A DNA stretch of 45,880 bases from Nemertoderma westbladi (taxonomy: Eukaryota; Animalia; Xenacoelomorpha), in NCBI GenBank assembly GCA_032718475.1, contig JAUCBJ010000926.1, positions 1 through 45,880 of the forward strand. Direction: 5' to 3'. The position numbers and the translations under genes are program-made. This document shows, in pieces, positions 2,930 to 30,170 of this stretch (its first letter is position 1; each line of letters starts with the position of its first letter). The notes beneath the pieces are model-generated. The model was not told the DNA's origin. It was given only the letters and a program-made list of their open reading frames with translations, and did no database searches.

Positions 2930-5900
2930 ATACCAACCTTACTGGCAACTGAGTATAAACTAACCTTAATGGCAGAGAGAGATAACTGTTTATAAACTAA
3001 CCTTACTGACAGAGAACTGTTTATAAACTAACTTACTGGCAGAGAACTGTTTATAAACTAACCTTACTGAAAGAGAACTGTTTATAAACTAACCTTACTT
3101 ACAGATAACTGTTTAAAAACTAACCTTACTGGCACATAACTGTTTATAAACTAACCTTGGCAGAGAACTGTTTATAAACTAACCTTACTGGCAGAGAACT
3201 ATTTATAAACTAACCTTACTGGCAGAGAACTGTTTATAAACTAACCTTACTGACAGAGAACTGTTTATAAACTAACCTTACTGGCACATAACTGTTTATA
3301 AACTAACCTTGGCAGAGAACTGTTTATAAACTAACCTTACTGGCAGAGAACTGTTTATAAACTAACCTTACTGGCAGAGAACTGTTTATAAACTAACCTT
3401 ACTGGCAGAGAACTGTTTATAAACTAACCTTACTGACAGAGAACTGTTTATAAACTAACCTTACTGACAGAGAACTGTTTATAAACTAACCTTACTGGAA
3501 GAGAACTGTTTATAAACTAACCTTACCGGCAGAGAACTGTTTATAAACTAACCTTACTGGAAGATAACTGTTTATAAATTAACCTTACTGAAAGAGAACT
3601 GTTTATAAACTAACCTTACTTACAGATAACTGTTTATAAACTAACCTTACTGGCAGATAACTGTTTATAAACTAACCTTACTGGGAGAGAACTGTTTATA
3701 AACTAACCTTACTGAAAGAGAACTGTTTATAAACTAGCCTTACAGACAGAGAACTGTTTATAAACTAACCTTACTGACAGAGAACTGTTTATAAACTAAC
3801 CTTACTGACAGAGAACTGTTTATAAACTAACCTTGGCAGAGAACTGTTTATAAACTAACCTTACTGGAAGAGAACTGTTTATAAACTAACCTTGGCAGAG
3901 AACTGTTTATAAACTAACCTTACTGGCAGATAACTGTTAATAAACTAACTTTACTGACAGATAACTGTTTATAAACTAACCTTACTGGCAGAGAACTGTT
4001 TATAAACTAACCTTGGCAGAGAACTGTTTATAAACTAACCTTACTGAAAGAGAACTGTTTATAAACTAACTTTACTGGCAGATAACTGTTTATAAACTAA
4101 CTTTACTGGCAGAGAACTGTGTATAAACTAACCTTACAGACAGAGAACTGTTTATAAACTAACCTTGGCAGAGAACTGTTTATAAACTAACCTTACTGAA
4201 AGAGAACTGTTTATAAACTAACTTTACTGACAGATAACTGTTTATAAACTAACCTTACTGGCAGAGAACTGTTTATAAACTAACCTTGGCAGAGAACTGT
4301 TTATAAACTAACCTTACTGAAAGAGAACTGTTTATAAACTAACTTTACTGGCAGATAACTGTTTATAAACTAACCTTACTGGCAGATAACTGTTTATAAA
4401 CTAACCTTACTGAAAGAGAACTGTTTATAAACTAACCTTACTGACAGAGAACTGTTTATAAACTAACTTTACTGGCAGATAACTGTTTATAAACTAACTT
4501 TACTGGCAGAGAACTGTGTATAAACTAACCTTACTGAAAGAGAACTGTTTATAAACTAACCTTACTGACAGAGAACTGTTTATAAACTAACTTTACTGGC
4601 AGATAACTGTTTATAAACTAACCTTACTGAAAGAGAACTGTTTATAAACTAACCTTACTGGAAGAGAACTGTTTATAAACTAACTTTACTGGCAGATAAC
4701 TGTTTATAAACTAACCTTACTGGCAGATAACTGTTTATAAACTAACCTTACTGAAAGAGAACTGTTTATAAACTAACCTTACTGGCAGATAACTGTTTAT
4801 AAACTAACCTTACTGAAAGAGAACTGTTTATAAACTAACTTTACTGGCAGATAACTGTTTATAAACTAACCTTACTGGCAGATAACTGTTTATAAACTAA
4901 CCTTACTGAAAGAGAACTGTTTATAAACTAACCTTACTGGCAGATAACTGTTTATAAACTAACCTTACTGAAAGAGAACTGTTTATAAACTAACCTTACT
5001 GACAGATAACTGTTTATAAACTAACCTTACTGGCAGATAACTGTTTATAAACTAACCTTACTGAAAGAGAACTGTTTATAAACTAACCTTACTGGAAGAG
5101 AACTGTTTATAAACTAACCTTACTGACAGAGAACTGTTTATAAACTAACCTTACTGGAAGAAAACTGTTTATAAACTAACCTTGGCAGAGAACTGTTTAT
5201 AAACTAACCTTACTGACAGAGAACTGTTTATAAACTAACCTTACTGGAAGAAAACTGTTTATAAACTAACCTTGGCAGAGAACTGTTTATAAACTAACCT
5301 TACTGACAGAGAACTGTTTATAAACTAACCTTACTGGAAGAAAACTGTTTATAAACTAACCTTGGCAGAGAACTGTTTATAAACTAACCTTACTGACAGA
5401 GAACTGTTTATAAACTAACCTTACTGACAGAGAACTGTTTATAAACTAACCTTGGCAGAGAACTGTTTATAAACTAACCTTACTGACAGAGAACTGTTTA
5501 TAAACTAACCTTACTGGAAGAAAACTGTTTATAAACTAACCTTGGCAGAGAACTGTTTATAAACTAACATTACTGGCAGAGAACTGTTTATAAACTAACC
5601 TTACTGGCAGAGAACTGTTTATAAACTAACCTTACTGACAGATAACTGTTAATAAACTAACTTTACTGACAGAGAACTGTTTATAAACTAACCTTACTGA
5701 CAGATAACTGTTTATAAACTAACCTTACTGGCAGAGAAGTGTTTATAAACTAACCTTACTGAAAGAGAACTGTTTATAAACTAACCTTGACAGAGAACTG
5801 TTTATAAACTAACCTTGACAGAGAACTGTTTATAAACTAACCTTACTGGAAGAGAACTGTTTATAAACTAACCTTGACAGAGAACTGTTTATAAACTAAC

Positions 5901-8900
5901 CTTACTGGAAGAGAACTGTTTATAAACTAACCTTACTGACAGAGAACTGTTTATAAACTAACCTTACTGGAAGAAAACTGTTTATAAACTAACCTTGGCA
6001 GAGAACTGTTTATAAACTAACATTACTGGCAGATAACTGTTAATAAACTAACTTTACTGACAGAGAACTGTTTATAAACTAACCTTACTGGCAGAGAGAA
6101 CTGTTTATAAACTAACCTTACTAGCAGAGAACTTTTTATAAACTAACCTTACAGACAGAGAACTGTTTATAAACTAACCTTACTGGCAGATAACTGTTTA
6201 TAAACTAACCTTGGCAGAGAACTGTTTATAAACTAACCTTACTGGAAGAGAACTGTTTATAAACTAACCTTACTGACAGAGAACTGTTTATAAACTAACC
6301 TTACTGACAGAGAACTGTTTATAAACTAACCTTACTGACAGAGAACTGTTTATAAACTAACTTTACTGACAGAGAACTGTTTATAAACTAACCTTACTGG
6401 CAGATAACTGTTAATAAACTAACCTTACTGAAAGAGAACTGTTTATAAACTAACCTTACTGGCAGATAACTGTTAATAAACTAACTTTACTGACAGAGAA
6501 CTGTTTATAAACTAACCTTACTGGCATATATCTGTTTATAAACTAACCTTACTGGCAGAGAACTGTTTATAAACTAACCTTACTGACAGAGAACTGTTTT
6601 TAAACTAACCTTACTGACAGAGAACTGTTTATAAACTAACCTTGGCAGAGAACTGTTTATAAACTAACCTTACTGACAGAGAACTGTTTATAAACTAACC
6701 TTGGCAGAGAACTGTTTATAAACTAACCTTACTGGCAGATAACTGTTAATAAACTAACTTTACTGACAGAGAACTGTTTATAAACTAACCTTACTGACAG
6801 AGAACTGTTTATAAACTAACCTTGGCAGAGAACTGTTAATAAACTAACCTTACTGAAAGAGAACTGTTTATAAACTAACCTTACTGGCAGATAACTGTTA
6901 ATAAACTAACTTTACTGACAGAGAACTGTTTATAAACTAACCTTACTGAAAGAGAACTGTTTATAAACTAACCTTGGCAGAGAACTGTTTATAAACTAAC
7001 CTTACTGGCAGATAACTGTTAATAAACTAACTTTACTGACAGAGAACTGTTTATAAACTAACCTTACTGACAGAGAACTGTTTATAAACTAACCTTACTG
7101 ACAGAGAACTGTTTATAAACTAACCTTGGCAGAGAACTGTTAATAAACTAACCTTACTGAAAGAGAACTGTTTATAAACTAACCTTACTGGCAGATAACT
7201 GTTAATAAACTAACTTTACTGACAGAGAACTGTTTATAAACTAACCTTACTGACAGAGAACTGTTTATAAACTAACCTTACTGACAGAGAACTGTTTATA
7301 AACTAACCTTACTGGCAGATAACTGTTAATAAACTAACTTTACTGACAGAGAACTGTTTATAAACTAACCTTACTGACAGAGAACTGTTTATAAACTAAC
7401 CTTACTGGAAGAGAACTGTTTATAAACTAACCTTACTGACAGAGAACTGTTTATAAACTAACCTTACTGGAAGAAAACTGTTTATAAACTAACCTTGGCA
7501 GAGAACTGTTTATAAACTAACATTACTGGCAGATAACTGTTTATAAACTAACATTACTGGCAGATAACTGTTTATAAACTAACCTTACTAGCAGAGAACT
7601 TTTTATAAACTAACCTTACAGACAGAGAACTGTTTATAAACTAACCTTACTGACAGAGAACTGTTTATAAACTAACCTTGCTGGCAGAGAACTGTTTATA
7701 AACGAACCTTACTGGAAGAGAACTGTTTATAAACTAACCTTACTGACAGAGAACTGTTTATAAACTAACCTTACTGGAAGAGAACTGTTTATAAACTAAC
7801 CTTACTGACAGAGAACTGTTTATAAACTAACCTTACTGGAAGAAAACTGTTTATAAACTAACCTTGGCAGAGAACTGTTTATAAACTAACATTACTGGCA
7901 GATAACTGTTTATAAACTAACATTACTGGCAGATAACTGTTTATAAACTAACATTACTGGCAGATAACTGTTTATAAACTAACCTTACTAGCAGATAACT
8001 TTTTATAAACTAACCTTACTGAAAGAGAACTGTTTATAAACTAACCTTACTGGCAGATAACTGTTAATAAACTAACTTTACTGACAGAGAACTGTTTATA
8101 AACTAACCTTACTGAAAGAGAACTGTTTATAAACTAACCTTGGCAGAGAACTGTTTATAAACTAACCTTACTGGCAGATAACTGTTAATAAACTAACTTT
8201 ACTGACAGAGAACTGTTTATAAACTAACCTTACTGACAGAGAACTGTTTATAAACTAACCTTGGCAGAGAACTGTTAATAAACTAACCTTACTGAAAGAG
8301 AACTGTTTATAAACTAACCTTACTGGCAGATAACTGTTAATAAACTAACTTTACTGACAGAGAACTGTGTATAAACTAACTTACTGGCAGATAACTGTTA
8401 ATAAACTAACCTTACTGAAAGAGAACTGTTTATAAACTAACCTTACTGGCAGATAACTGTTAATAAACTAACTTTACTGACAGAGAACTGTTTATAAACT
8501 AACCTTACTGACAGAGAACTGTTTATAAACTAACCTTACTGGAAGAGAACTGTTTATAAACTAACCTTACTGACAGAGAACTGTTTATAAACTAACCTTA
8601 CTGGAAGAAAACTGTTTATAAACTAACCTTGGCAGAGAACTGTTTATAAACTAACATTACTGGCAGATAACTGTTTATAAACTAACATTACTGGCAGATA
8701 ACTGTTTATAAACTAACCTTACTGGAAGAGAACTGTTTATAAACTAACCTTACTGACAGAGAACTGTTTATAAACTAACCTTACTGACAGAGAACTGTTT
8801 ATAAACTAACCTTACTGGCACATAACTGTTTATAAACTAACCTTACTGGCAGATAACTGTTTATAAACTAACCTTACTGACAGAGAACTGTTTATAAACT

Positions 8901-11900
8901 AACTTTACTGACAGAGAACTGTTTATAAACTAACCTTACTGGCAGATAACTGTTAATAAACTAACCTTACTGAAAGAGAACTGTTTATAAACTAACCTTA
9001 CTGGCAGATAACTGTTAATAAACTAACTTTACTGACAGAGAACTGTTTATAAACTAACCTTACTGACAGAGAACTGTTTATAAACTAACCTTACTGGCAG
9101 ATAACTGTTTATAAAATAGCCTTACTGGCAGAGAACTGTTTATAAACTAACCTTGGAGGGAACTGTTTATAAACTAACCTTACTGGAAGAGAACTGTTTA
9201 TAAACTAACCTTTACTGAAATAGAACTGTTTATAAATTAACCTTACTGACAGAGAACTGTTTATAAACTAACCTTACTGACAGAGAACTGTTTATAAACT
9301 AACCTTACTGGCAGAGAACTGTTTATAAACTAACCTTACTGACAGAGAACTGTTTATAAACTAACCTTGGCAGAGAACTGTTTATAAACTAACCTTGACA
9401 GAGAACTGTTTATAAACTAACCTTACTGGAAGAGAACTGTTTATAAACTAACCTTACTGGGAGATAACTGTTTATAAACTAACCTTACTGGCAGAGAACT
9501 GTTTATAAACTAACCTTACTGGCAGAGAACTGTTTATAAACTAACCTTGACAGAGAACTGTTTATAAACTAACCTTACTGGAAGAGAACTGTTTATAAAC
9601 TAACCTTACTGACAGAGAACTGTTTATAAACTAACCTTACTGGCAGAGAACTGTTTATAAACTAACCTTACTGAAAGAGAACTGTTTATAAACTAACCTT
9701 ACTGGCAGAGAACTGTTTATAAACTAACCTTACTGGCAGAGAACTGTTTATAAACTAACCTTACTGGCAGAGAACTGTTTATAAACTAACCTTACTGGGA
9801 GATAACTGTTTATAAACTAACCTTACTGGCAGAGAACTGTTTATAAACTAACCTTACTGGCAGAGAACTGTTTATAAACTAACCTTGACAGAGAACTGTT
9901 TATAAACTAACCTTACTGGAAGAGAACTGTTTATAAACTAACCTTACTGGGAGATAACTGTTTATAAACTAACCTTGACAGAGAACTGTTTATAAACTAA
10001 CCTTACTGGAAGAGAACTGTTTATAAACTAACCTTACTGGCAGAGAACTGTTTATAAACTAACCTTGACAGAGAACTGTTTATAAACTAACCTTACTGGA
10101 AGAGAACTGTTTATAAACTAACCTTACTGGGAGATAACTGTTTATAAACTAACCTTGACAGAGAACTGTTTATAAACTAACCTTACTGGAAGAGAACTGT
10201 TTATAAACTAACCTTACTGGCAGAGAACTGTTTATAAACTAACCTTACTGGCAGAGAACTGTTTATAAACTAACCTTGACAGAGAACTGTTTATAAACTA
10301 ACCTTACTGGAAGAGAACTGTTTATAAACTAACCTTACTGGGAGATAACTGTTTATAAACTAACCTTACTGGCAGAGAACTGTTTATAAACTAACCTTAC
10401 TGGCAGAGAACTGTTTATAAACTAACCTTGACAGAGAACTGTTTATAAACTAACCTTACTGGAAGAGAACTGTTTATAAACTAACCTTACTGACAGAGAA
10501 CTGTTTATAAACTAACCTTACTGGCAGAGAACTGTTTATAAACTAACCTTACTGAAAGAGAACTGTTTATAAACTAACCTTACTGGCAGAGAACTGTTTA
10601 TAAACTAACCTTACTGGCAGAGAACTGTTTATAAACTAACCTTACTGGCAGAGAACTGTTTATAAACTAACCTTACTTACAGATAACTGTTTATAAACTA
10701 ACCTTACTGGCAGAGAACTGTTTATAAACTAACCTTACTTACAGATAACTGTTTATAAACTAACCTTACTGGCAGAGAACTGTTTATAAACTAACCTTAC
10801 TGGCAGATAACTGTTTATAAACTAACTTTACTGGAAGAGAACTGTTTATAAACTAACCTTACAGACAGAGAACTGTTTATAAACTAACCTTACTGGCAGA
10901 TAACTGTTTATAAACTAACCTTGGCAGAGAACTGTTTATAAACTAACCTTACTGGCAGATAACTGTTTATAAACTAACCTTACTGGAAGAGAACTGTTTA
11001 TAAACTAACCTTACAGACAGAGAACTGTTTATAAACTAACCTTACTGACAGAGAACTGTTTATAAACTAACCTTACTGGCATAGAACTGTTTATAAACTA
11101 ACCTTACTGAAAGAGAACTGTTTATAAACTAACCTTACTGGCAGAGAACTGTGTATAAACTAACTTACTGGCAGAGAACTGTTTATAAACTAACCTTACT
11201 GGCAGAGAACTGTTTATAAACTAACCTTACTGGCAGAGAACTGTTTATAAACTAGCCTTACTGGGAGAGAACTGTTTATAAACTAACCTTACTGGCAGAT
11301 AACTGTTTATAAACTAGCCTTACTGGGAGAGAACTGTTTATAAACTAACCTTACTGGCAGAGAACTGTTTATAAACTAACCTTACAGACAGATAACTGTT
11401 TATAAACTAACCTTACTGGCAGATAACTGTTTATAAACTAACCTTACTGACAGAGAACTGTTTATAAACTAACCTTACTGGCAGAGAACTGTTTATAAAC
11501 TAACCTTACTGGCAGAGAACTGTTTATAAACTAACCTTACTGGCAGAGAACTGTTTATAAACTAACCTTACTGAAAGAGAACTGTTTATAAACTAACCTT
11601 ACTGGCAGAGAACTGTTTATAAACTAACCTTACTGGCAGAGAACTGTTTATAAACTAACCTTACTGGCAGAGAACTGTTTATAAACTAACCCTACTGGCA
11701 GAGAACTGTTTATAAACTAACCTTACTGGCAGAGAACTGTTTATAAACTAACCTTACTGGCAGAGAACTGTTTATAAACTAACCTTACTGGCAGAGAACT
11801 GTTTATAAACTAACCTTACTGGCAGAGAACTGTTTATAAACTAACCTTACTGGCAGAGAACTGTTTATAAACTAACCTTACTGAAAGAGAACTGTTTATA

Positions 11901-13082
11901 AACTAACCTTACTGGCAGAGAACTGTTTATAAACTAACCTTACTGGCAGAGAACTGTTTATAAACTAACCTTACTGGCAGAGAACTGTTTATAAACTAAC
12001 CTTACTGAAAGAGAACTGTTTATAAACTAACCTTACTGACAGAGAACTGTTTATAAACTAACCTTACTGACAGAGAACTGTTTATAAACTAACCTTACTG
12101 GCAGAGAACTGTTTATAAACTAGCCTTACTGGGAGAGAACTGTTTATAAACTAACCTTACTGGCAGAGAACTGTTTATAAACTAACCTTACTGACAGATA
12201 ACTGTTTATAAACTAACCTTACTGGCAGAGAACTGTTTATAAACTAACCTTACTGGCAGAGAACTGTTTATAAACTAACCTTACTGGCAGAGAACTGTTT
12301 ATAAACTAACCTTACTGAAAGAGAACTGTTTATAAACTAACCTTACTGGCAGAGAACTGTTTATAAACTAACCTTACTGAAAGAGAACTGTTTATAAACT
12401 AACCTTACTGACAGAGAACTGTTTATAAACTAACCTTACTGACAGAGAACTGTTTATAAACTAACCTTACTGGCAGAGAACTGTTTATAAACTAGCCTTA
12501 CTGGGAGAGAACTGTTTATAAACGAACCTTACTGGCAGATAACTGTTTATAAACTAACCTTACTGACAGAGAACTGTTTATAAACTAACCTTACTGACAG
12601 ATAACTGTTTATAAACTAACCTTACTGGCAGAGAACTGTTTATAAACTAACCTTACTGGCAGAGAACTGTTTATAAACTAACCTTACTGGCAGAGAACTG
12701 TTTATAAACTAACCTTACTGAAAGAGAACTGTTTATAAACTAACCTTACTGACAGAGAACTGTTTATAAACTAACCTTACTGACAGAGAACTGTTTATAA
12801 ACTAACCTTACTGACAGAGAACTGTTTATAAACTAACCTTACTGACAGAGAACTGTTTATAAACTAACCTTACTGACAGAGAACTGTTTATAAACTAACC
12901 TTACTGACAGAGAACTGTTTATAAACTAACCTTACTGGCAGAGAACTGTTTATAAACTAACCTTACTGACAGAGAACTGTTTATAAACTAACCTTACTGA
13001 CAGAGAACTGTTTATAAACTAACCTTACTGGCAGAGAACAGTTTATAAACTAACCTTACTGGCAGAGAACTGTGTATAAACT
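2930..13082. repeat. 31-bp tandem satellite, roughly 325 copies, derived from the end of the last JmjC-region exon (splice donor/stop junction)
   Basis: Unit aactgtttataaactaaccttactggcagag, with 27-bp deletion variants. Minus strand reads CAGTTCTCTGCCAGTAAG|GTTAGTTTATAAA, identical to the exon end at 13055. Confidence 0.95.
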
Positions 13083-13246
13083 TTAGTAAGGTCGTCCAAT
13101 GAATATTCCATTAGGACTGTAAACGCTTTTAGGGTTGGATTGCTCCGTCGGGCGCAATCCGCACAGTAAACGTTAAACCGAGAGGAAGAAGGCGATGTAA
13201 GATTAGAGGAAGTTTTAGTGACGAATAAAATACAGAATACTTCAAC
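13055..13246 (-). CDS. KDM6A: KDM6A/UTX-like exon, C-terminal Zn-binding domain (VEVFCILFVT...VYCADCARR...EYSLDDLTKVYTQFSASK)
   Basis: ttttag acceptor; matches UTX VEVFDLLFVT...HCQDCAR...EQYKMEDLMQVYDQF. Ends at AAG|GTTAGT, or reads on to VSL-stop at 13043. Confidence 0.9.
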
Positions 13247-13369
13247 CTAAAAATAAATTAAATAATTAATTAACTTCACAAATTATGTAAAACGGCCCGA
13301 ATACAAATATAACCGTTCGCTCCATGGCTTGTAGTTCTGACTCGCCCCACAAAATACATTGCAGTATAA

Positions 13370-13516
13370 AGGTCTGTATAATGTGTGTAAGTTAGTCTAC
13401 AGGTCTGTATAATATGAGTAAGTTAGTCTACAGGTCTGTATAATGTGTGTAAGTTAGTCTACAGGTCTGTATAATGTGTGTAAGTTAGTCTACAGGTCTG
13501 TATAATGTGTGTAAGT
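13370..13516. repeat. 31-bp intronic minisatellite, ~4.7 copies
   Basis: Unit aggtctgtataatgtgtgtaagttagtctac. Confidence 0.9.
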
Positions 13517-13528
13517 TTAAGTACTGAC

Positions 13529-13655
13529 CTCGCATTGACTGCAATACTGGGCTGGTTCTCCCTGCTTCTTCCCATGCCATCTAACGGCTACGTTCGACTT
13601 CCTCAAACCTTCTAAAGTTAATCGACAGTGCGTAAGCAACCGCAGGAGGGCGTAC
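13529..13655 (-). CDS. KDM6A: KDM6A/UTX-like exon (YALLRLLTHC...WHGKKQGEPAQYCSQCE)
   Basis: tttag|G acceptor, GAG|GTCAGT donor; matches UTX YCLLRTLKQC...WHGRTKEEPAHYCSICE. Confidence 0.92.
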
Positions 13656-15060
13656 CTAAACATAAGAGATACCGTGAGTAACTACAGGAGGGCGTACCTA
13701 ATCATAAGAGATACCGTGAGTAACCGCAGGAGGGCGTACCTAAACATATGAGATACCGTGAGTAACCGCAGGAGGGCGTACCTAAACATAGGAGATTCAG
13801 TGAATAACCGCAAGAGGGCGCACCTAAACATAAGAGATATCGTGAGTAACCGCAGGAGGGCGTACCTAAACATAAGAGATTCAGTGAGTAACCGCAAGAG
13901 GGGGCACCTAAACATAAGATATATCGTGAGTAACCGCAGGAGGGCGTACCTAAACATAAGAGATCCAGTGAGTAACCGCAAGAGGGCGCACATAAACATG
14001 AGATATCGTGAGTAACCGCAGGAGGGCGTACCTAAACATAAAAGATTCAGTGAGTAACCGCAGGAGGGCGTACCTAATCATAAGAGATACCGTGAGTAAC
14101 CGCAGGAGGGCGTACCTAAACATAAGAGTTACCGTGAGTAACCGCAGGAGGGCGTACCTAAACATATGAGATACCGTGAGTAACAGCAGGAGGGCGTACC
14201 TAAACATAAGAGATATCGTGAGTAACCGCAGGAGGGCGTACCTAAAAATAAGAGATACCATGAGTAACCGCAGGAGGGCGTACCTAAACATATGAGATAC
14301 CGAGAGTAACCGCAGGAGGGCGTACCTAAACATAGGAGATTCAGTGAATAACCGCAAGAGGGCGCACCTAAACATAAGAGATATCGTGAGTAACCGCAGG
14401 AGGGCGTACCTAAACATAAGAGATTCAGTGAGTAACCGCAAGAGGGGGCACCTAAACATAAGATATATCGTGAGTAACCGCAGGAGGGCGTACCTAAACA
14501 TAAGAGATCCAGTGAGTAACCGCAAGAGGGCGCACATAAACATGAGATATCGTGAGTAACCGCAGGAGGGCGTACCTAAACATAAGAGATTCAGTGAGTA
14601 ACCGCAAGAGGGCGCACCTAAACATAAGATATATCGTGAGTAACCGCAGGAGGGCGTACCTAAACATAAGAGATACAGTGAGTAACCGCAGGAGGGCGTA
14701 CCTAAACATAAGAGATTCAGTGAGTAACCGCAAGAGGGGGCACCTAAACATAAGATATATCGTGAGTAACCGCAGGAGTGCGTACCTAAACATAAGAGAT
14801 ACCGTGAGTAACCGCAGGAGGGCGTACCTAAACATAAGAGATTCAGTGAGTAACCGCAGGAGGGCGTACCTAAACATAAGAGATTCAGTGAGTAACCGCA
14901 AGAGGGCGCACCTAAACATAAGAGATATCGCGAGTAACCGCAGGAGGGCGTACCTAAATATAAGAGATACGGGCGTACCTAAACATAAGACATTCAGTGA
15001 GAAACCGCAAGAGGGCGCACCTGAACATAAGAGATACCGTGAGTAACCGCAGGAGGGCGT
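13637..15060. repeat. 42-bp tandem satellite, ~34 copies, derived from the splice acceptor of the 13655 exon
   Basis: Minus-strand unit atctcttatgtttag|GTACGCCCTCCTGCGGTTactcacggt; contains a ~544-bp higher-order duplication. Confidence 0.95.
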
Positions 15061-15094
15061 CATATAATTTTATGACAGATTCTTATAAACTAAC

Positions 15095-15208
15095 CGAATC
15101 ATTAAATACAACTGAGGTTCGCTTAAACTCAGATTCCTAGCGACATTCCAAGTTAAATGAGCCATCGGAACAATCGATTTACACGAGTTGAGTTTGTTGA
15201 ATTCATAT
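15095..15208 (-). CDS. KDM6A: KDM6A/UTX-like exon ([38 protein letters not shown])
   Basis: tttttatcag acceptor, CG|GTTAGT donor; matches UTX [25 protein letters not shown]. Confidence 0.93.
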
Positions 15209-15844
15209 CTGATAAAAAAAAGTAAATATATAACGCTGATAATTCGATCAGCATAAAATATACCAACTTTGTTAAATTTATTATATGATGTTAGACAACC
15301 ACGACTTTAGAGGAGAGTTTTTATAACATTTTTATAAAATGTATTACTTAGACTTACCTTTTCGGCGGACAAAATGTCCTATATTTTTCGTAATTTATGG
15401 GATAGCCTATTTCGTGCAACACTTACCGGAACCTGTAGTTACTGTGTATGGTTTGGTGTAATTTTTCTTGTGGTAGTTGGGTTGGGTTATGTAGCACTAA
15501 AATCGATTTGGTATTTTGTTTTTTGATGGGCCTCAGTGCCTGAGTACTAACAGTGGCCCAAGTGGCCCTAAATGCTAGGTAGTATCTGAGGGAATAAGAC
15601 CCCATGTCCTATTTTATTGTTTTCATATTCAATTTATTAACAGAATTAAAAAATGTCGCAATATTAGTTACCATGGTTATATCTCATCGGAACTTGGTTG
15701 GTTGGTACCTTTGATGCAACAGAGCGACACGAGACGATACCTTATGTTGGCCTTTTAGAAAATAATTTTTATACCTTATGTTGGCCTTTTAGAAAATAAT
15801 TTTTAAAGTTTTTTTCATGAGAACCAACCCGTCTGCCTGCCTAC

Positions 15845-15982
15845 CTGTCTGTTGCGTTCTTGTAGACATAGGAACTGAGAGGTCCAACATTCCATGCTAT
15901 GTTGTTACACCAGCCGAGACTCTGCACCCAATGAACACAGGCTGTGTTCACCCAGACCATATCCCCGGGTCTTTGTGTGAAT
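15845..15982 (-). CDS. KDM6A: KDM6A/UTX-like JmjC exon ([35 protein letters not shown]), includes the third Fe-binding His
   Basis: ttccacag acceptor, AG|GTAGGC donor; near identical to [38 protein letters not shown]. Confidence 0.95.
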
Positions 15983-18900: not shown

Positions 18901-21900
18901 TACAGGTACACTGTTGTACCAACCTGTATACTGGTACAGGTACACTGTTGTACCAACCTGTATACTGGTATAGGTAGGTACACTGTTGTACCAACCTGTA
19001 TACTGGTATAGGTACACTGTTGTACCAACCTGTATAATGGTACACTGTTGTACCAACCTGTATACTGGTACAATGTTGTACCCACCTATATACTGGTACA
19101 CTGTCGTACCAAACTGTATACTGGTATACTGTTGTACCAACCTGTATACTGGTACACCGTTGAACCAACCTGTATACTGGTACATTGATGTACCAACCTG
19201 TATGGTACACTGATGTGCAAACCTGTATACTGGTATACTGTCGTACCAACCTTAATACTGGTACAGTGATACAGAGATACAGGGGAAATACGAAAATGTG
19301 AGAGAGATACAAGGGGAAATACGAAAACGTGTGAGAGATACAAGGGGGAATACGAAAAAGTGAGAGAGATACAAGGGGAAATACGAAAAAGTGAGAGATA
19401 CAAGGGGAAATACGAAAAAGTGAGAGAGATACAAGGGGAAATACGAAAAAGTGAGAGAGATACAAGGGGAAATACGAAAAAGTGAGAGAGATACAAGGGG
19501 AAATACGAAAAAGTGAGAAAGATACAAGGGGAAAGGCGAAAAAGTGAGAGAGATACAAGGGGAAATAGGACAACGTGTGAGAGATACAAGGGGGAATACG
19601 AAAAGGTGAGAGAGATACAAGGGGAAATACGAAAAAGTGAGAAAGATACAAGGTGGAATACGAAAACGTGTGAGAGATACAAGGGGAAATACGAAAAAGT
19701 GAGAGAGATACAAGGGGAAATACGAAAAAGTGAGAGATACAAGGGGAAATACGAAAAAGTGAGAGAGATACAAGGGGAAATACGAAAAAGTGAGAGATAC
19801 AAGGGGAAATACGAAAAAGTGAGAGAGATACAAGGGGAAATACGAAAAAGTGAGAGAGATACAAGGGGAAATACGAAAAAGTGAGAGAGATACAAGGGGA
19901 AATACGAAAAAGTGAGAAAGATACAAGGGGAAATGCGAAAAAGTGAGAGAGATACAAGGGGAAATAGGACAACGTGTGAGAGATACAAGGGGGAATACGA
20001 AAACGTGTGAGAGATACAAGGGGGAATACGAAAAGGTGAGAGAGATACAAGGGGAATACGAAAAAGTGAGAAAGATACAAGGGGAAATACGAAAAAGTGT
20101 GAGAGATACAAGGGGAAATAAGAAAAAGTCTGAGGGATACAAGGGGGAATACGAAAAAGTGAGAGAGATACAAGGATAAATACGATAAGTGAGAGAGATA
20201 CAAGGGGAAATATGAAAACGTGAGAGAGATACAAGGGGAAATACGAAAAAGTGAGACAGATACAAGGGGAAATACGAAAAAGTGAGAAAGATACAAGGGG
20301 AAATGCGAAAAAGTGAGAGAGATACAAGGGGAAATGCGAAAAAGTGAGAGAGATACAAGGGGGAATACGAAAACGTGTGAGAGATACAAGGAGAAATACG
20401 ATAAGTGAGAGAGATACAAGGGGAAATATGAAAACGTGAGAGAGATACAAGGGGAAATACGAAAAGGTGAGAGAGATACAAGGGGAAATAAGAAAAAGTC
20501 TGAGGGATACAAGGGAAAATAAGAAAAAGTCTGAGAGATACAAGGGGAAATACAGTCTAAAATCATACGGATACAATGTTATACCAACCTTTTTACTGGT
20601 ACACTGTTGTACCAACCTGTATACTGGTACAGGTACACTGTTGTACCAACCTGTATACTGGTACAGGTACACTGTTGTACCAACCTGTATACTGGTACTG
20701 GTACACTGTTGTACCAACCTGTATACTGGTACATGTACACTGTTGTACCAACCTGTATACTGGTACAGGTACACTGTTGTACCAACCTGTATACTGGTAC
20801 AGGTACACTGTTGTACCAACCTGTATAATGGTACACTGTTGTACCAACCTGTATACTGGTACAATGTTGTACCAACCTGTATACTGGTACAGGTACACTG
20901 TTGTACCAACCTGTATAATGGTACACTGTTGTACCAACCTGTATACTGGTACACCGTTGAACCAACCTGTATACTGGTACACTGTCGTACCAACCAGTAT
21001 ACTGGTACACTGATGTACCAACCTGTATACTGGTACACTGTCGTACCAACCTTAATACTGGTACAGTGATGTACCAACCTGTATACTGGTACACCGCTGA
21101 ACCAACCTGTATACTGGTACACTAATGTACCAACCTGTATACTGGTACTCTGATGTACCAACCTGTATGGTAGACTAATGTACCAACCTGTATAATGGTA
21201 CACTGTTGTACGAACCCGTATGGTACACTGATGTACCAACCTGTATACTGGTACACTGTTGTACGAACCCGTATGGTACACTGATGTACCAACCTGTATA
21301 CTGGTACACTGTTGTACGAACCCGTATGGTACACTGATGTACCAACCTGTATAATGGTACACTGTTGTACGAACCCGTATGGTACACTGATGTACCAACC
21401 TGTATACTGGTACACTGTCGTACCAACCTGTATACTGGTACACCGTTGAACCAACCTGTATACTGGTACACTAATGTACCAACCTGTATACTGGTACTCT
21501 GATGTACCAACCTGTATGGTAGACTAATGTACCAACCTGTATAATGGTACACTGTTGTACGAACCCGTATGGTACACTGATGTACCAACCTGTATACTGG
21601 TACACTGTTGTACCAACCTGTATACTGGTACACTGATGTACCAACCTGTATGGTACACTGATGTACCAACCTGTATGGAACATTGATGTACCAACCTGTA
21701 TGGTACACTGATGCACCAACCTGTATACTGGTACACCGTTGAACCAACCTGTATACTGGTCTGGTACACTGATGTACCAACCTGTATGGTACACTGATGG
21801 AAGGTGGAATGGTTGTTGGAACTGGGGAAGGTGGAACTGTTGTTGGAACTGGGGAAGGTGGAATGGTTGCTTGAACTGGAGAAGGTGGAATGGTTGTTGG

Positions 21901-22717
21901 AACTGGGGAAGGTGGCGTGGTTGTTGGAACTGGGGAAGGTGGAATGGTTGTTGGAACTGGGGAAGGTGGAATGGTTGTTGGAACTGGGAAGGTGGAATGG
22001 TTGTTGGAACTGGGGAAGGTGGAGTGGTTGTTGAAACTGGGGAAGGTGGAATGGTTGTTGTAACTGGGGAAGGTGGAATGGTTGTTGGAACTGGGGAAGG
22101 TGGAACGGTTGTTGGAACTGGGGAAGGTGGAATGGTTGCTTGAACTGTAGAAGGTGGAATGGTTGTTGGAACTGGGGAAGGTGGCGTGGTTGTTGGAACT
22201 GGGGAAGGTGGAATGGTTGTTGGAACTGGGGAAGGTAGAATGGTTGTTGAAACTGGGGAAGGTGGAATGGTTGCTGGAACTGGGGAAGGTGGAATGGTTG
22301 TTGGAACTGGGGAAGGTGCAATGGTTGTTGGAACTGGAGAAGGTGGAATGGTTGTTGGAACTGGGGAAGGTGGAATGGTTGCTGGAACTGGGGAAGGTGG
22401 AATGGTTGTTGGAACTGGGGAAGGTGCAATGGTTGTTGGAACTGGAGAAGGTGGAATGGTTGTTGGAACTGGGGAAGGTGGAACGGTTGTTGGAACTGGG
22501 GAAGGTGGAATGGTTGTTGAAACTGGGGAAGGTGGAATGGTTGTTGGAACTGGGGAAGGTGGCGTGGCGTGCCAGAGATACAAGGGGAAATATGAAAACG
22601 TGAGAGAGATACAAGGGGAAATACGAAAAGGTGAGAAAGATACAAGGGGAAATAAGAAAAAGTCTGAGGGATACAAGGGGAAATAAGAAAAAGTCTGAGA
22701 GATACAAGGGGAAATAC
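15999..22717. repeat. 30-bp purine-rich satellite (type A), in blocks ~15999-16923, 18180-18757, 19271-20552, 22573-22717
   Basis: Unit aaaagtgagagagatacaaggggaaatacg; on the minus strand it is a pyrimidine tract abutting the acceptor at 15983. Confidence 0.93.
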
Positions 22718-25700
22718 AGTCTAAAATCATACGGATACAATGTTATACCAACCTTTATACTGGTACACTGCTGTACCAACCTGTATACTGGTACAGGTAC
22801 ACTGTTGTACCAACCTGTATACTGGTACAGTGATGTACCAATCTGTATACTGGTACATTGATGTACCAACCTGTATACAGGTACAGGTACACCGCCGTAC
22901 CAACCTGTATACTGGTACACTGATGTACCAACCTGTATACTGGTACACTGTCGTACCAACCTGTATACTGGTACACTGATGTACCAACCTGTATACTGGT
23001 ACAGGTACACTGCCGTAATCAACCTGCATACTGGTACACTGATTTACCAACCTGTATACTGGTACACTGTCGTACCAACCTGTATACTTGTACACTGATG
23101 TACCAACCTGTATACTGGTACACTGATGTACCAACCTGTATACTGGTACAGGTACACTGTTGTACCAACCTGTATACTGGTACAGGTAAACTGTTGTATC
23201 AACCTGTATACTGGTACAGGTACACTGTTGTACCGACCTGTATACTGGTACAGGTGCACTGTTGTACCAACCCGTATACTGGTACAGGTACACTGTTGTA
23301 CCAACCTGTATACTGGTACAGGTACACTGTTGTACCAACCTGTATACTGGTACAGGTACACTGTTGTACCAACCTGTATACTGGTACAGGTACACTGTTG
23401 TACCAACCTGTATACTGGTACAGGTACACTGTTGTACCAACCTGTATACTGGTACAGGTACACTGTTGTACCAACCTGTATACTGGTACAGGTACACTGT
23501 TGTACCAACCTGTATACTGGTACAGGTACACTGTTGTACCAACCTGTATAATGGTACACTGTTGTACCAACCTGTATACTGGTGCAATGTTGTACCAACC
23601 TGTATACAGGTACAGGTACACCGCCGTACCAACCTGTATACTGGTACACTGATGTACCAACCTGTATACTGGTACACTGTTGTACCAACCTGTATACTGG
23701 TACACCGTTGAACCAACCTGTATACTGGTACACTGTAGTACCAACCAGTATACTGGTACACTGATGTACCAACCTGTATACTGGTACATCGTTGAACCAA
23801 CCTGTATACTGGTACAGTGATGTACCAACCTGTATACTAGTACACCGTTGAACCAACCTGTATACTGGTACACTGATGTACCAACCTGTATACTGGTACT
23901 CTGATGTACCAACCTGTATGGTAGACTAATGTACCAACCTGTATAATGGTACACTGTTGTACGAACCTGTATGGTACACTGCTGTACCAACCTGTATACT
24001 GGTACACTGTTGTACCAACCTGTATACTGGTACACTGATGTACCAACCTGTATACTGGTACACCGTTGAACCAACCTGTATACTGGTACACTGTCGTACC
24101 AACCAGTATACTGGTACACTGATGTACCAACCTGTATACTGGTACACCGTTGAACCAACCTGTATACTGGTACAGTGATGTACCAACCTGTATACTGGTA
24201 CACCGTTGAACCAACCTGTATACTGGTACACTGATGTACCAACCTGTATACTGGTACTCTGATGTACCAACCTGTATGGTAGACTAATGTACCAACCTGT
24301 ATAATGGTACACTGTTGTACGAACCTGTATGGTACACTGATGTACCAACCTGTATACTGGTACACCGTTAAACCAACCTGTATACTGGTACACTGTCGTA
24401 CCAACCAGTATACTGGTACACTGATGTACCAACCTGTATACTGGTACACCGTTGTACCAACCTGTATACTGGTACACTGTTGTACCAACCTGGATACTGG
24501 TACTCTGATGTACCAACCTGTATGGTAGACTAATGTACCAACCTGTATAATGGTACACTGTTGTACAAACCTGTATGGTACACTAATGTACCAACCTGTA
24601 TACTGGTACACCGTTGAACCAATCTGTATACTGGTACACTGTCGTACCAACCAGTATACTGGTACACTGATGTACCAACCTGTATACTGGTACACCGTTG
24701 AACCAACCTGTATACTGGTACACTGTCGTACCAACCAGTATACTGGTACACTGATGTACCAACCTGTATACTGGTACACCGTTGTACCAACCTGTATACT
24801 GGTACACCGTTGAACCAACCTGTATACTGGTACACTGATGTACCAACCTGTATACTGGTACTCTGATGTACCAACCTGTATGGTAGACTAATGTACCAAC
24901 CTGTATAATGGTACACTGTTGTACGAACCTGTATGGTACACTGATGTACCAACCTGTATACTGGTACACTGTTGTACCAACCTGTATACTGGTACACTGA
25001 TGTACCAACCTGTATGGTACACTGATGTACCAACCTGTATGGTACATTGATGTACCAACCTGTATGGTACACTGATGCACCAACCTGTATACTGGTACAC
25101 CGTCGAACCAACCTGTATACTGGTCTGGTACACTGATGTACCAACCTGTATCCTGGTACACTGTTGTACCAGCCTGTATACTGGTACACTGATGTACCAA
25201 CCTGTATGGTACACTGATGTACCAACCTGTATACTGGTACACCGTTGAACCAACCTGTATACTGGTACACTGATGTACCAACCTATATGGTACACTGATG
25301 TACCAACCTGTATACTGGTACACTGTTGTACCAAAATGTATACTGGTACACTGATGTACCAACCTGTATGGTACACTGATGTACCAACCTGTATGGTACA
25401 CTGATGTACCAACCTGTATACTGGTACACCGTTGTACCAACCTGTATACTGGTACACAGATGTACCAACCTGTATGGTACACTGATGTACCAACTTGTAT
25501 ACAGGTACACTGATGTACCAACCTGTATACTGGTATACTGATGTACCAACCTGTATACTGGTACACTGTTGTACAAACCTGTATACTGGTACACTGTTGT
25601 ACGAACCTGTATACTGGTACACTGTCGTACCAACCTGTATACTGGTACAGTGATGTACCAACCTGTATACTGGTGCAATGTTGTACCAACCTGTATACAG

Positions 25701-28200
25701 GTACAGGTACACCGCCGTACCAACCTGTATACTGGTACACTGATGTACCAACCTGTATACTGGTACACTGTTGTACCAACATCTATACTGGTACAGGTAC
25801 ACCGCCGTACCAACCTGTATACTGGTACACTGATGTTCCAACCTGTATACTGGTACACTGATGCACCAACCTGTATGGTACACTGATGTGCCAACCTGTA
25901 TACTGGTACACTGATGTACCAACCTGTATGGTACACTGATGTACCAACTTGTATACTGGTACACTGTCGTACCAACCTGTATACTGGTACACTGTTGTAC
26001 CAACCTGTATACTGGTACACTGTTGTACGAACCTGTATACTGGTACACTGATGTACCAAACTGTATACTGGTACATTGATGTACCAACCTGTATACTGGT
26101 ACACTGATGTACCAACCTGTATACAGGTACACTGTTGTACCAACCTGTATACTGGTACAGTGATGTACCAACCTGTATACTGGTACATTGATGTACAAAC
26201 CTGTATACAGGTACAGGTACACCGCCGTACCAACCTGTATACTGGTACACTGATGTACCAACCTGTATACTGGTACACTGTTGTACCAACCTCTATACTG
26301 GTACACTGATGTACCAACCTGTATACTGGTACACTGTTGTACCAACCTGTATACTGGTACAGTGATGTACCAACCTGTATACTGGTACACTGTTGTACCA
26401 ACCTCTATACTGGTACACTGATGTTCCAACCTGTATACTGGTACACTGATGTACCAACCTGTATGGTACACTGATGTGCCAACCTGTATACTGGTACACT
26501 GATGTACCAACCTGTATGGTACACTGATGTACCAACCTGTATACTGGTACTGATGTACCAACCTGTATACTGGTACAGTGTCGTACCAACCTGTATACTG
26601 ATACACTGTTGTACCAACCTGTATACTGGTACACTGTAGAACCAACCTGTATACTGGTACACTGTTGTACCAACCTGTATACTGGTACAGTGATGTACCA
26701 ATCTGTATACTGGTACATTGATGTACCAACCTGTATACAGGTACAGGTACACCGCCGTACCAACCTGTATACTGGTACACTGATGTACCAACCTGTATAC
26801 TGGTACACTGTCGTACCAACCTGTATACTGGTAGTGATGTACCAACCTGTATACTGGTACACTGATGTACCAACCTGTATACTGGTACACTGTCGTACCA
26901 ACCTGTATACTGGTACACTGATGTACCAACCTGTATACTGGTACAGGTACACTGCCGTAATCAACCTGCATACTGGTACACTGATTTACCAACCTGTATA
27001 CTGGTACACTGTCGTACCAACCTGTATACTGGTACACGGTTGTACCAACCTGTATACTGGTACACTGTTGTACCAACCTGGATACTGGTACACTGATGTA
27101 CCAACCTGTATACTGGTACACTGATGTACCAACCTGTATACTGGTACAGGTACACTGCCGTACCAACCTGTATACTGGTACACTGATGTACCAACCTGTA
27201 TACTGGTACACTGTCGTACCAACCTGTATACTTGTACACTGATGTACCAACCTGTATACTGGTACACTGATGTACCAACCTGTATACTGGTACAGGTACA
27301 CTGCCGTACCAACCTGTATATTGGTACACTGATGTACCAAACTGTATCCTGGTACACTTTTGTTGTACCAATCTATATACTGGTACATTGATGTACCAAC
27401 CTGTATACTGGTACACTGATGTACCAACCTGTATACTGGTACACTGTCGTACCAACCTGTATACTGGTACACTGATGTACCAACCTGTATACTGGTACAG
27501 GTACACTGCCGTAATCAACCTGCATACTGGTACACTGATTTACCAACCTGTATACTGGTACACTGTCGTACCAACCTGTATACTTGTACACTGATGTACC
27601 AACCTGTATACTGGTACACTGATGTACCAACCTGTATACTGGTACAGGTACACTGCCGTACCAACCTGTATATTGGTACACTGATGTACCAAACTGTATC
27701 CTGGTACACTTTTGTTGTACCAATCTATATACTGGTACATTGATGTACCAACCTGTATACTGGTACAGTGATGTACCAACCTGTATACTGGTACAGTGAT
27801 GTACCAACCTGTATACTGGTACAGGTACACTGATGTACCAACCTGTATACAGGTACAGGTACACCGCCGTACCAACCTGTATACTGGTACACTGCCGTAC
27901 CAACCTGTATACTGGTACAGGTAAACTGTTGTATCAACCTGTATACTGGTACAGGTACACTGCCGTACCAACCTGTATACTGGTACAGGTAAACTGTTGT
28001 ATCAACCTGTATACTGGTACAGGTACACTGCCGTACCAACCTGTATACTGGTACACTGATGTACCAACCTGTATACTGGTACAGTGATGTACCAACCTGT
28101 ATACTGGTACATTGATGTACCAACCTGTATAGTGTATACTGGTACAGTGATGTACCAACCTGTATACTGGTACTGTTTTACCAACCTGTATACTGGTACA
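16961..28200. repeat. 28/34-bp satellite (type B) derived from the splice donor of the 28186 exon, in blocks ~16961-18178, 18796-19270, 20590-21797, 22745-28200
   Basis: Minus-strand unit GTACCAGTATACAG|GTTGGTACAACAGT(GTACCT); the core is identical to the exon end VPVYR|gttggta. Confidence 0.95.
21798..22566. repeat. 27-bp G-rich satellite (type C), ~28 copies, embedded in the compound array
   Basis: Unit ggaaggtggaatggttgttggaactgg. Confidence 0.93.
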
Positions 28201-28393
28201 TTGTTCGCGTATAAATCCTCGAGAACGGGCCACCAGGAACCAGTTAGGTAGGATATCCCGTGTCTCTCACACAGACTGTAGATGACCCCCCAGTATTCTT
28301 CGCCAACGCAGAACCATTCGCAGTCTCCCGGCCCAATGTTTATGTTGATGCTGCACAACTGGTTGTTCTCTTGATGTCCCGGAGTACGGGCGC
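28186..28393 (-). CDS. KDM6A: KDM6A/UTX-like JmjC catalytic exon ([27 protein letters not shown]...[19 protein letters not shown])
   Basis: cccgctccag acceptor, CAG|GTTGGT donor; HQE Fe-binding motif intact; matches [30 protein letters not shown]. Confidence 0.96.
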
Positions 28394-28459
28394 CTGGAGC
28401 GGGGATAATATAAAGTATTACAATTTCATTGATTCATTGACTAATTCATATTAATACTA

Positions 28460-28628
28460 GTACTATAAAGTAAATAAAAGTAATATAAAGTAATATAAAG
28501 TAAAGAACGGTAATATAAAGTAAATAACAGTAATATAAAGTAAATAATAGAAATATAAAGTAAATAATAGTAATATTATAAAGTAAATAACAGTAATATA
28601 AAGTAAATAATAGTAATATAAAGTAAAA
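28460..28628. repeat. AT-rich degenerate intronic tandem repeat
   Basis: Recurring gtaatataaagtaaataa units. Confidence 0.75.
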
Positions 28629-28663
28629 GATATTAATATTGCAGCGAAATAAAGAGTTTATAC

Positions 28664-28797
28664 CTGGAACTTTCATATAAAGTTGAACTGTATTCATTCC
28701 CAATATGGAGTTGCCAACGTGACTGAGTAGATTGCCCGCGGATACAACCCGAGTGAATTGAGGTAATTTGGTAAGTTCGGTGAGTTGGGGTTGCCAT
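28664..28797 (-). CDS. KDM6A: KDM6A/UTX-like exon ([45 protein letters not shown])
   Basis: ttttag acceptor, CAG|GTATAA donor; near identical to UTX. Confidence 0.96.
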
Positions 28798-28874
28798 CTA
28801 AAATATTAATATTATTTATCCGGAATTAGAATATACAAAATGAATAAGGTTTGAAACCTTTTAAACCTTATTAA

Positions 28875-29140
28875 GTACACCATTTTGGTCCAAAATATGT
28901 CGACATTTTTTTTATGGTCTATTATAATACACCATTGAATGGTGTTTTAAATCTGAAAACCGCTATTTAATAGCTCTTTTAGTTTTCAAGTTATAACAAT
29001 TTCCATTTATGGAATCCTAACCTGTCATGTAGAATAGCATCTTAGGCACCTATATTCCAAATTATAGCCAAAACCAAACAATTTTGAAACGCTGAGAGTG
29101 ATAAATCGAAGAGTTGTTCGAAAATGGTGTACCCCCCCCT
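28875..29140. mobile_element. Possible degenerate MITE
   Basis: Inverted 12-mers gtacaccatttt and aaaatggtgtac, with TTAA nearby on both sides. Confidence 0.3.
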
Positions 29141-29249
29141 TAAGATAACGTAATTATAGCCTAAGCCTCCTTAATAAGTAAAGCCTCCTTTATATATCTA
29201 TTTTCTGAGGGCTCGACTCGGGGTCTCCCACCCAATATACAGGACTCAC

Positions 29250-29589
29250 TTAGTTTCATCGGATAGATCGACGTTGGTTCCGAACTTTAACGGTTTAAAC
29301 AAGCCGGTTCTTCTTCGCTTCGCCGGCGACGCCCCCATTTCGCTGTCCAGCTCCTCGACCTTCACCCCTACCATCTCCTCGTGCTCCTCCTTGAGGCTCT
29401 CCTGGAAGCTGGAGGCCTGGTACTGGGCGTACTTGGCGATGGTTGTGTAACTCCTAGAGGACTCACACAACCACACCTTACGGTCGCCTTCCCAGTTCTC
29501 CGTCGAGGGTTGGTTGACCTGGGAACGGACCTCCATCACGTGCTCCGGGTTGGCCTCGACCAAAGTCTTCGTAGAAAAAAGCGCCAAAT
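29250..29589 (-). CDS. KDM6A: KDM6A/UTX-like exon ([17 protein letters not shown]...[18 protein letters not shown]...[10 protein letters not shown])
   Basis: tttctctatag acceptor, AA|GTGAGT donor; matches [20 protein letters not shown]...KFGTNIDLSD. Confidence 0.96.
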
Positions 29590-30170
29590 CTATAGAGAAA
29601 AATAAGTTATTGGTAGAAAAACAGCGCCAAATCTAAAGAGAAAAATACGTTATTGGTAGAAAAAACGCGCCAAATCTATAGAGAAAAATATGTTATTGGT
29701 AGAAAAAAGCGCCAAATCTAGAGAAAAATACGTTATTGGTAGAAAAAAGCGCCAAATCTATAGAGAAAAATACGTTATTGGTAGAAAAAAGCGCCAAATC
29801 TATAGAGAAAAATACGTTATTGGTAGAAAAAAGCGCCAAATCTATAGAGAAAAATACGTTATTGGTAGAAAAAAGCGCCAAATCTATAGAGAAAAATACG
29901 TTATTGGTAGAAAAAAGCGCCAAATCTATAGAGAAAAATACGTTATTGGTAGAAAAAAGCGCCAAATCTATAGAGAAAAATACGTTATTGGTAGAAAAAA
30001 GCGCCAAATCTATAGAGAAAAATAAATTATTGGTAGAAAAACAGCGCCAAATCTATAGAGAAAAATACGTTATTGGTAGAAAAAAGCGCCAAATCTATAG
30101 AGAAAAATACGTTATTGGTAGAAAAACAGCGCCAAATCTATAGAGTCAAATAAATTATTGGTAGAAAAAA
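29571..30170. repeat. 42-bp tandem satellite, ~14 copies, derived from the splice acceptor of the 29589 exon
   Basis: Minus-strand unit caataacgtatttttctctatag|ATTTGGCGCTTTTTTCTAC; fills almost the whole intron. Confidence 0.95.

What the first reader, a model, noticed from the sequence alone, without database searches (positions are those of the whole stretch)
2930..30170. Four independent intronic satellites are each built from the adjacent splice junction of one gene
Seen: the 31-bp array repeats GCCAGTAAG|GTTAGT (exon end 13055), the 28/34-bp array repeats GTACCAGTATACAG|GTTGGTA (donor 28186), and two unrelated 42-bp arrays repeat the acceptors at 13655 and 29589 with their first codons. 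In each case the real site is the exon-proximal copy and the array extends into the intron, creating hundreds of near-perfect decoy splice sites. Inference: four such arrays among about 18 junctions is hard to explain by chance. It suggests a junction-focused amplification process (for example splicing/R-loop-coupled slippage or repair) or a splicing role, plus strict exon-definition to choose the right copy.
Basis: partly seen in the sequence, partly recalled or inferred. Interest (0 to 1): 0.85.

Follow-up and report, generated by a model that had tools for sequence, protein, structure and literature searches.

The report
Giant splice-junction "mirage" repeats in KDM6
Four exon borders of an animal's KDM6/UTX histone-demethylase gene have been copied head-to-tail 13 to about 330 times into the neighbouring introns, and the one transcript seen still splices only at the real borders, so this is a very large example of a known repeat type (lancelet "mirages") that is likely a tolerated by-product of DNA slippage.

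Summary
Observation confirmed. The minus-strand gene is KDM6/UTX. Four unrelated arrays straddle its junctions: donors 13055 (about 328 units, 10.1 kb) and 28186 (about 284), acceptors 13655 (34) and 29589 (14). One spliced contig of run X3 uses the exon-proximal site at all four and reveals a last exon at 2684. A second sample (X2) also holds the arrays, which argues against an assembly artefact; lengths are unverified. Of 552 decoy sites, 1 would give the normal C-terminus.

Collapsed to one copy, three of the four host introns are 61-82 nt. Four straddling of 9-10 arrays gives P 0.04-0.20, and nothing if introns were short at seeding. All these arrays lie near junctions (post hoc P at most 0.002), but arrays also abut transposon ends. 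Best reading: ordinary microhomology duplication plus minisatellite expansion, filtered by selection.

This is a known kind: amphioxus mirages (PMC3087553) and the human F7 VNTR (PMC1557585). The scan noted it before in other genomes. Only the scale stands out.

The parts
31142..31576 (-). KDM6/UTX exon E1 (first exon seen in the window; low-complexity linker; upstream exons not found)
   Evidence: Open frame joined to E2; predicted from GT/AG and frame only, not covered by the contig
30199..30457 (-). Exon E2
   Evidence: tblastn; loose end of X3 contig maps to 30200-30214
29571..30170 (-). 42-bp acceptor array: 23 nt intron + 19 nt exon, 14 units incl. the real one; intron 2 collapses from 609 to about 61 nt
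29250..29589 (-). Exon E3; real acceptor at 29589
   Evidence: E 5e-37 to KDM6A 3avr; spliced contig
28664..28797 (-). Exon E4
   Evidence: Joints skipping 452 and 270 nt, CT..AC
28459..28639 (.). AT-rich 10/20-bp intronic array, 24 nt from the E4 donor; does not straddle
28186..28393 (-). Exon E5 (JmjC); real donor at 28186
   Evidence: Pfam JmjC E 5e-11; contig continues into E6
16936..28200 (-). 28/34-bp donor array (about 284 units, 8.4 kb in four blocks), interleaved with the GA-rich and 27-bp arrays by higher-order duplication
   Evidence: block junction repeated at 16944, 18778, 20573, 22737
21799..22562 (.). 27-bp array (28 units) nested in intron 5; unrelated to any junction
15999..22716 (-). 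GA-rich 31-bp array (about 96 units in four blocks); pyrimidine-rich on the sense strand, ends 16 nt before the E6 acceptor; does not straddle
15845..15982 (-). Exon E6
15095..15208 (-). Exon E7
13631..15059 (-). 42-bp acceptor array, about 34 units; each carries a branch-point-like motif, pyrimidine tract and AG|GT; intron 7 collapses from 1,439 to about 74 nt
13529..13655 (-). Exon E8; real acceptor at 13655
13363..13517 (.). 31-bp intronic array, 5 units here, 93 nt (3 units) shorter in run X2; 11 nt from the E8 donor; does not straddle
13055..13246 (-). Exon E9 (KDM6 GATA-like domain); real donor at 13055
   Evidence: Pfam KDM6_GATAL E 5e-14; contig
2930..13082 (-). 31-bp donor array, about 328 units, 10.1 kb; about 28 nt exon-like + 3 nt intron; intron 9 collapses from 10,370 to about 255 nt
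2247..2684 (-). Last exon E10: five codons, stop, 3' UTR (far end estimated from contig length)
   Evidence: Loose end at 13055 maps to 2662-2684

Best explanation
These are four independent exon-intron-boundary minisatellites (mirage type) in a KDM6/UTX gene, likely seeded by ordinary slippage between short look-alike motifs one unit apart in what were probably short introns, likely grown by normal minisatellite turnover, and likely tolerated because the exon-proximal site is the one spliced. Shown: the arrays, their junction origin, independence, use of the real sites in one transcript, presence in a second sample, and unit-number variation of a neighbouring array. Inferred: (1) seeding at 8-10-nt microhomologies; (2) a survivor filter: duplications inside exons are purged, those crossing a junction leave one intact exon with the spare copies in the intron; (3) donors are chosen first-come (as shown for human F7), acceptors by pairing with the downstream exon's donor, with nonsense-mediated decay removing errors; (4) no function.
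For: Spliced contig uses all four real sites with no inserted copy. Collapsed host introns are 61, 74, 82 and 255 nt; straddling is not clearly above expectation. Short matches one period apart: 10/10 at E3, 8/8 at E9, 7/9 at E8; the units carry the non-exon letters at those places (27 copies of the intron form against 0 of the exon form at E8; 297 against 4 at E9). 551 of 552 decoys would not give the normal C-terminus; the largest array sits where read-through changes only the last five residues to three. Donor-breaking variants are not favoured or purged in any obvious way: 278 of 328 units keep the donor. Non-straddling arrays of the same size class occur in the same introns and at transposon ends. 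A neighbouring array varies in unit number between samples. Precedent: PMC3087553 (section 16 read), PMC3902484 (passage), PMC1557585 (abstract, discussion); slippage between short direct repeats as the usual proposed origin: PMC2820488 (passage).
Against: All 9-10 arrays are within about 40 nt of a junction and the three longest array-poor introns (684, 602, 452 nt) hold only two-copy repeats near their ends; only intron 3 (about 300 nt) and part of intron 8 were shown to contain dispersed repeats, and no intron interior matched elsewhere in the window, so 'introns were short when seeded' is assumed for introns 1, 6 and 9. Apparent microhomology cannot be told from a partial terminal copy. 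First-AG scanning would predict use of upstream acceptor copies, which carry their own branch-like motif; how they are skipped is not shown. RNA evidence is one contig from a different sample whose own arrays were not seen; contigs drop rare isoforms.
Confidence: 0.65

Rival explanations
1. Boundary-biased origin: duplications arise preferentially at exon-intron borders (splicing- or R-loop-coupled lesions, or recombination tracts ending where conserved exon meets polymorphic intron), so junction arrays exceed what small introns and selection explain.
For: All 9-10 arrays within about 40 nt of a junction, P 0.0001-0.002 on present collapsed lengths; density 8 in 4.4 kb against 4 in 13.4 kb, P 0.003; 4 of the 7 large arrays straddle, P 0.014-0.09; several mirages per gene are reported in amphioxus (PMC3087553).
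Against: Thresholds and window chosen after the fact; the signal vanishes if introns were at most 120 nt; arrays also abut both ends of an inverted-repeat element; transposon-derived DNA is probably younger and had less time to seed arrays; no test of R-loops was possible.
Confidence: 0.24
2. The arrays have a splicing or regulatory role: recursive (ratchet) splicing at AG|GT units, or tuning KDM6 output by intron length or unproductive splicing.
For: Three of the four units contain AG|GT; most units keep the signal; 85% of the gene span is array.
Against: Only one X3 record lay on 12990-13745 and none on array copies; signal retention is expected from recent homogenisation; the arrays are mutually unrelated; mirages elsewhere did not alter splicing (PMC3087553, PMC3902484).
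Confidence: 0.06
3. The arrays, or their great length, are assembly artefacts.
For: No laid record spans an array; lengths were not checked with long reads; summed contig depth is not a copy number.
Against: Run X2, another study and sample with its own SNPs, has contigs running from unique sequence into array copies (joints going back at 28198 and 13053), the far end of the intron-7 array, and depth far above the flanks at all four arrays (about 1,470 vs 25; 209 vs 17; 3,400-6,200 vs 33; 130-400 vs 33). The 31-bp array holds 53 distinct unit types in ordered higher-order runs, unlike consensus noise.
Confidence: 0.05

Closest known systems
Amphioxus 'mirage' minisatellites (Adh3, globins BflGb6 and BflGb9, troponin C, PGBD5; PMC3087553 section 16 read, PMC3902484 passage read; the original Adh3 paper PMC117041 was not held and is known here only second-hand)
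   Same: Tandem copies of an exon-intron boundary, on both donor and acceptor sides, units within the 10-72 bp range given for Adh3, many copies with AG/GT signals, normal mRNA made, terminal copies more diverged, length variable.
   Different: Copy number here is 14 to about 328 (6 and 3 units for BflGb6), arrays reach 10-12 kb and form higher-order blocks; the animal is not identified (best KDM6 match 68%).
Human F7 intron-7 37-bp VNTR (PMC1557585, abstract and discussion read)
   Same: First unit spans the donor; identical downstream pseudo-donors stay silent; the most upstream is used.
   Different: Five to nine sites there against 228 and 280 here; donor side only; mechanism shown by mutagenesis there, inferred here.
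Internal tandem repeats at exon-intron boundaries in human segmental duplications, and intron gain by tandem duplication (PMC2812944, passages read)
   Same: Minisatellites at exon-intron boundaries; AG|GT in the unit.
   Different: No new intron here: each intron has a non-repeat far end, and the spliced protein aligns collinearly with KDM6A homologues.

Membership tests
Mirage minisatellite | Tandem unit spans an exon-intron boundary | tested here: met
   All four units hold exon and intron letters of a transcript-verified junction
Mirage minisatellite | Minisatellite-size unit | tested here: met
   28-42 bp; 10-72 bp given for Adh3 in PMC3087553
Mirage minisatellite | Spare copies lie in the intron and many keep splice signals | tested here: met
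   280, 228, 31 and 13 decoys
Mirage minisatellite | Normal splicing is kept | tested here: met
   One spliced contig, one run; rare isoforms would be missed
Mirage minisatellite | Length polymorphism or somatic instability | tested here: inconclusive
   Shown only for the non-straddling intron-8 array (93 nt shorter in X2); no record spans the four straddling arrays
Intron gain by tandem duplication of AG|GT | Both ends of the intron come from copies of one duplicated exonic AG|GT segment | tested here: not met
   Each intron has its other splice site in unrelated sequence
Recursive splice sites | Internal AG|GT used as zero-length exon in nascent RNA | not testable with these tools
   Motif present in three units; no nascent or raw RNA reads listed
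KDM6/UTX demethylase (host gene) | JmjC followed by KDM6 GATA-like domain | tested here: met
KDM6/UTX demethylase (host gene) | N-terminal TPR repeats (UTX rather than JMJD3 type) | tested here: inconclusive
   No upstream exon found in the window by tblastn with 4 of the 120 listed homologues

The most novel reading that the evidence does not exclude
This animal seeds tandem repeats preferentially at exon-intron borders by a boundary-coupled mutational process, and its spliceosome picks one acceptor out of dozens of complete branch-point/tract/AG modules and one donor out of hundreds across introns that recently grew from under 100 nt to over 10 kb: a natural experiment on the switch from intron to exon definition and on where minisatellites are born.
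Probability: 0.22. Interest if true: 0.65.

Novelty: new member of a known kind. Interest (0 to 1): 0.33.

Why it matters
The origin of mirages is called unclear in PMC3087553, and my searches found no genome-wide test of junction enrichment, though the library lacks most subscription papers. A gene with four verified, very large cases on both donor and acceptor sides would make two questions testable in one organism: whether arrays are born at junctions more than small introns and selection predict, and how upstream acceptor decoys are skipped. On present evidence it is a striking but ordinary member of a known class, and a warning for gene prediction and read mapping in such genomes.

Tried and rejected
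No whole genome held: no genome-wide enrichment test. No earlier notes for this genome or look-alike windows. No RNA holder listed by record; X3 is listed as 'DNA?' and is read here as RNA only because its contig skips introns at CT..AC. X4 covered only repeats and X5 gave nothing. Idea that 13055 is no donor and the frame simply ends at the stop four codons on: rejected for the dominant transcript. Idea that the two 42-bp (14-codon) acceptor units are buffered by staying in frame: rejected; 0 of 13 and 0 of 31 upstream acceptors give the normal C-terminus, because the copy next to the exon is 43 nt (E3) or holds a stop (E8). The 'reach normal stop' count of 8 printed was a faulty test and was replaced. 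Common origin of the arrays: rejected. Intron gain: rejected. Intron interiors as local repeats: no match elsewhere in the window. One TRF row (30465-30498, 17 bp x 1.9, score 54, 7 nt from the E2 acceptor) was left out of the count of 9 and put back. The organism was not identified: the 120 listed of 3,046 homologues were nearly all fish, best 68%. The Adh3 mirage paper could not be read. No supplements were read; those of PMC3087553 hold the mirage alignments.
Full report
Gene. The window holds the 3' part of a minus-strand animal gene. Nine exons (31576-31142, 30457-30199, 29589-29250, 28797-28664, 28393-28186, 15982-15845, 15208-15095, 13655-13529, 13246-13055) with GT-AG borders join into an open 649-residue frame. 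E3 matches human KDM6A (3avr) at E 5e-37; E5 carries JmjC and E9 the KDM6 GATA-like domain; the spliced protein aligns collinearly with four homologues at 56-63% (4 of the 120 listed were used). The best listed homologue of E3 is 68% identical, so the organism was not identified. No genome is held.

Arrays. TRF gives 45 rows in the window. They share at most six consecutive bases with one another. Five more arrays in the same introns do not cross a junction (AT-rich 10/20 bp, GA-rich 31 bp, 27 bp, 34 bp x 2, 31 bp x 5), and a marginal sixth (17 bp x 1.9) lies at 30465. Arrays make up 85% of the 29.3-kb span.

Which copy is used. Six public runs were listed, none on record as RNA. Run X3 has a 1,897-nt contig that skips introns 3 and 4 at CT..AC, so it is read as a transcript. 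It leaves the reference at 28186 into E6 and at 29590 into E2, at 13663 into E7 and at 13055 into sequence at 2684. The eight extra bases at 13656-13663 are a look-alike with two mismatches, and the contig has exactly 244 letters between 28186 and 13663, equal to E6+E7-8. So all four exon-proximal sites are used, and 13055 is a true donor to a last exon of five codons; I had doubted this because read-through meets a stop after three residues. Limits: one contig, one sample other than the window's, its own arrays unseen; contigs drop rare isoforms.

Not an artefact. X1 shows no exon differences from the window and may be its source, so it is not independent. X2 is another study and sample, shares five exon SNPs with X3, and has contigs that run from unique sequence into array copies, the far end of the intron-7 array, and summed depth far above the flanks at all four arrays. 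The tool warns that depth is no copy number; lengths are unverified. The non-straddling intron-8 array is three units shorter in X2.

Decoys. 280 and 228 donor-like and 31 and 13 acceptor-like sites lie in the arrays; only 1 of these 552 would give a protein with the normal C-terminus. Sequence alone cannot single out the real site: 280 and 215 donors are identical over -3..+6, 14 and 10 acceptors over -14..+1, and acceptor units carry branch-point-like motifs at -20 and -18 (the motif is recalled, not tested). For donors, first-site selection is documented in human F7 (PMC1557585, abstract and discussion). For acceptors, exon definition and/or nonsense-mediated decay is inferred. The 42-bp units are not buffered by frame. 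The largest array lies where an error changes only the last few residues, which fits tolerance.

Chance. With each array collapsed to one unit the nine introns measure 684, 61, 452, 109, 82, 602, 74, 158 and 255 nt (my estimates). With seeds placed uniformly and exon-internal ones removed, 16-24% of survivors straddle a junction; 4 of 9 has P 0.04-0.15, 4 of 10 P 0.06-0.20, 4 of the 7 large arrays P 0.014-0.06. About 300 nt of intron 3 is a high-copy dispersed repeat; removing it gives P 0.06-0.20 for 4 of 9, and capping introns at 120 nt gives 0.46-0.83. Against my reading: every array is within about 40 nt of a junction (P 0.0001-0.002, threshold chosen afterwards), and arrays of four or more copies are six times denser in the collapsed gene than in the rest of the window (8 in 4.4 kb, 4 in 13.4 kb, P 0.003). 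Interiors of introns 1, 6 and 9 were not shown to be insertions. For my reading: two of the four outside arrays abut the two ends of an inverted-repeat element at 34174 and 40365, so array formation at boundaries is not confined to splice sites. All of this is one window chosen for looking odd.

Mechanism. At three arrays a short match lies one period apart between exon and intron-side sequence (10/10 at E3, 8/8 at E9, 7/9 at E8), and the units carry the non-exon letters there; E5 is ambiguous. [quoted passage not shown] Later growth by unequal exchange is indicated by higher-order blocks: the junction between the 28-bp and GA-rich arrays recurs four times. Selection removes duplications inside exons and spares those that leave one intact exon. 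Steps shown: arrays, origin from the junctions, correct splicing in one transcript. Steps inferred: seeding, short ancestral introns, the way decoys are skipped, neutrality.

Known kind. Tandem duplications of exon-intron boundaries are 'mirages', described in amphioxus Adh3, globins, troponin C and PGBD5, on both borders, with normal splicing and unstable length (PMC3087553 section 16; PMC3902484 passage; the Adh3 paper itself was not held). I reached these through paper searches before seeing that the scan had noted the same kind in other genomes. This case meets the defining features that could be tested. It differs in scale: hundreds of units and 10-12-kb introns against a handful of units in the cases I read. 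Searches found no genome-wide enrichment test, within the limits of the library.

Verdict. Real, verified at the transcript level, a new and unusually large member of a known kind; junction-targeted origin unproven (about 0.22-0.24). Interest 0.33.

Noticed in passing
window 34625-39823 (+): One open frame of 1,732 codons: 75 in-frame copies of a 30-bp (10-residue, proline-rich) repeat followed by endonuclease and reverse transcriptase domains (Pfam RVT_1 E 7e-33, Exo_endo_phos_2 E 3e-10): an apparently intact non-LTR retrotransposon.
   Followed up: partly
window 34174-34565 and 39983-40365: About 390-nt inverted repeats (89-97% in pieces) enclose the retrotransposon; a tandem array abuts each outer end (33364-34176, 37-45 bp x 20; 40363-40495, 33 bp x 4).
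   Followed up: partly
window 41294-42301 and 42616-43533 (-): Two intronless GC-rich frames (335 and 305 codons); the first has a weak Glycoprotein_B hit (E 3e-5, below the curated cut-off), the second no Pfam hit. They look like pieces of an endogenous viral or retroelement envelope gene.
   Followed up: partly
window 28864-29169: High-copy dispersed repeat filling most of intron 3 (summed contig depth 19,000-209,000 in X1, X2 and X4 against 9-25 in the flanks of X1 and X2).
   Followed up: no
window 21799-22562: 27-bp array nested inside the 28-bp/GA-rich arrays; on the minus strand it reads as a proline/threonine-rich 9-residue repeat reminiscent of the retrotransposon's repeat; origin unknown.
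   Followed up: no
window 15094 and 13054 (-): Introns 7 and 9 begin with the same 12 bases, though only intron 9's start was amplified.
   Followed up: no
window 31577-45880: No upstream KDM6 exon found in 14 kb; this may be one long transposon-filled intron.
   Followed up: partly
window 13048-13399 vs 28150-29600: Run X1 single-copy depth differs fivefold between the two stretches (46 vs 9.5): uneven library or a local duplication; unexplained.
   Followed up: no
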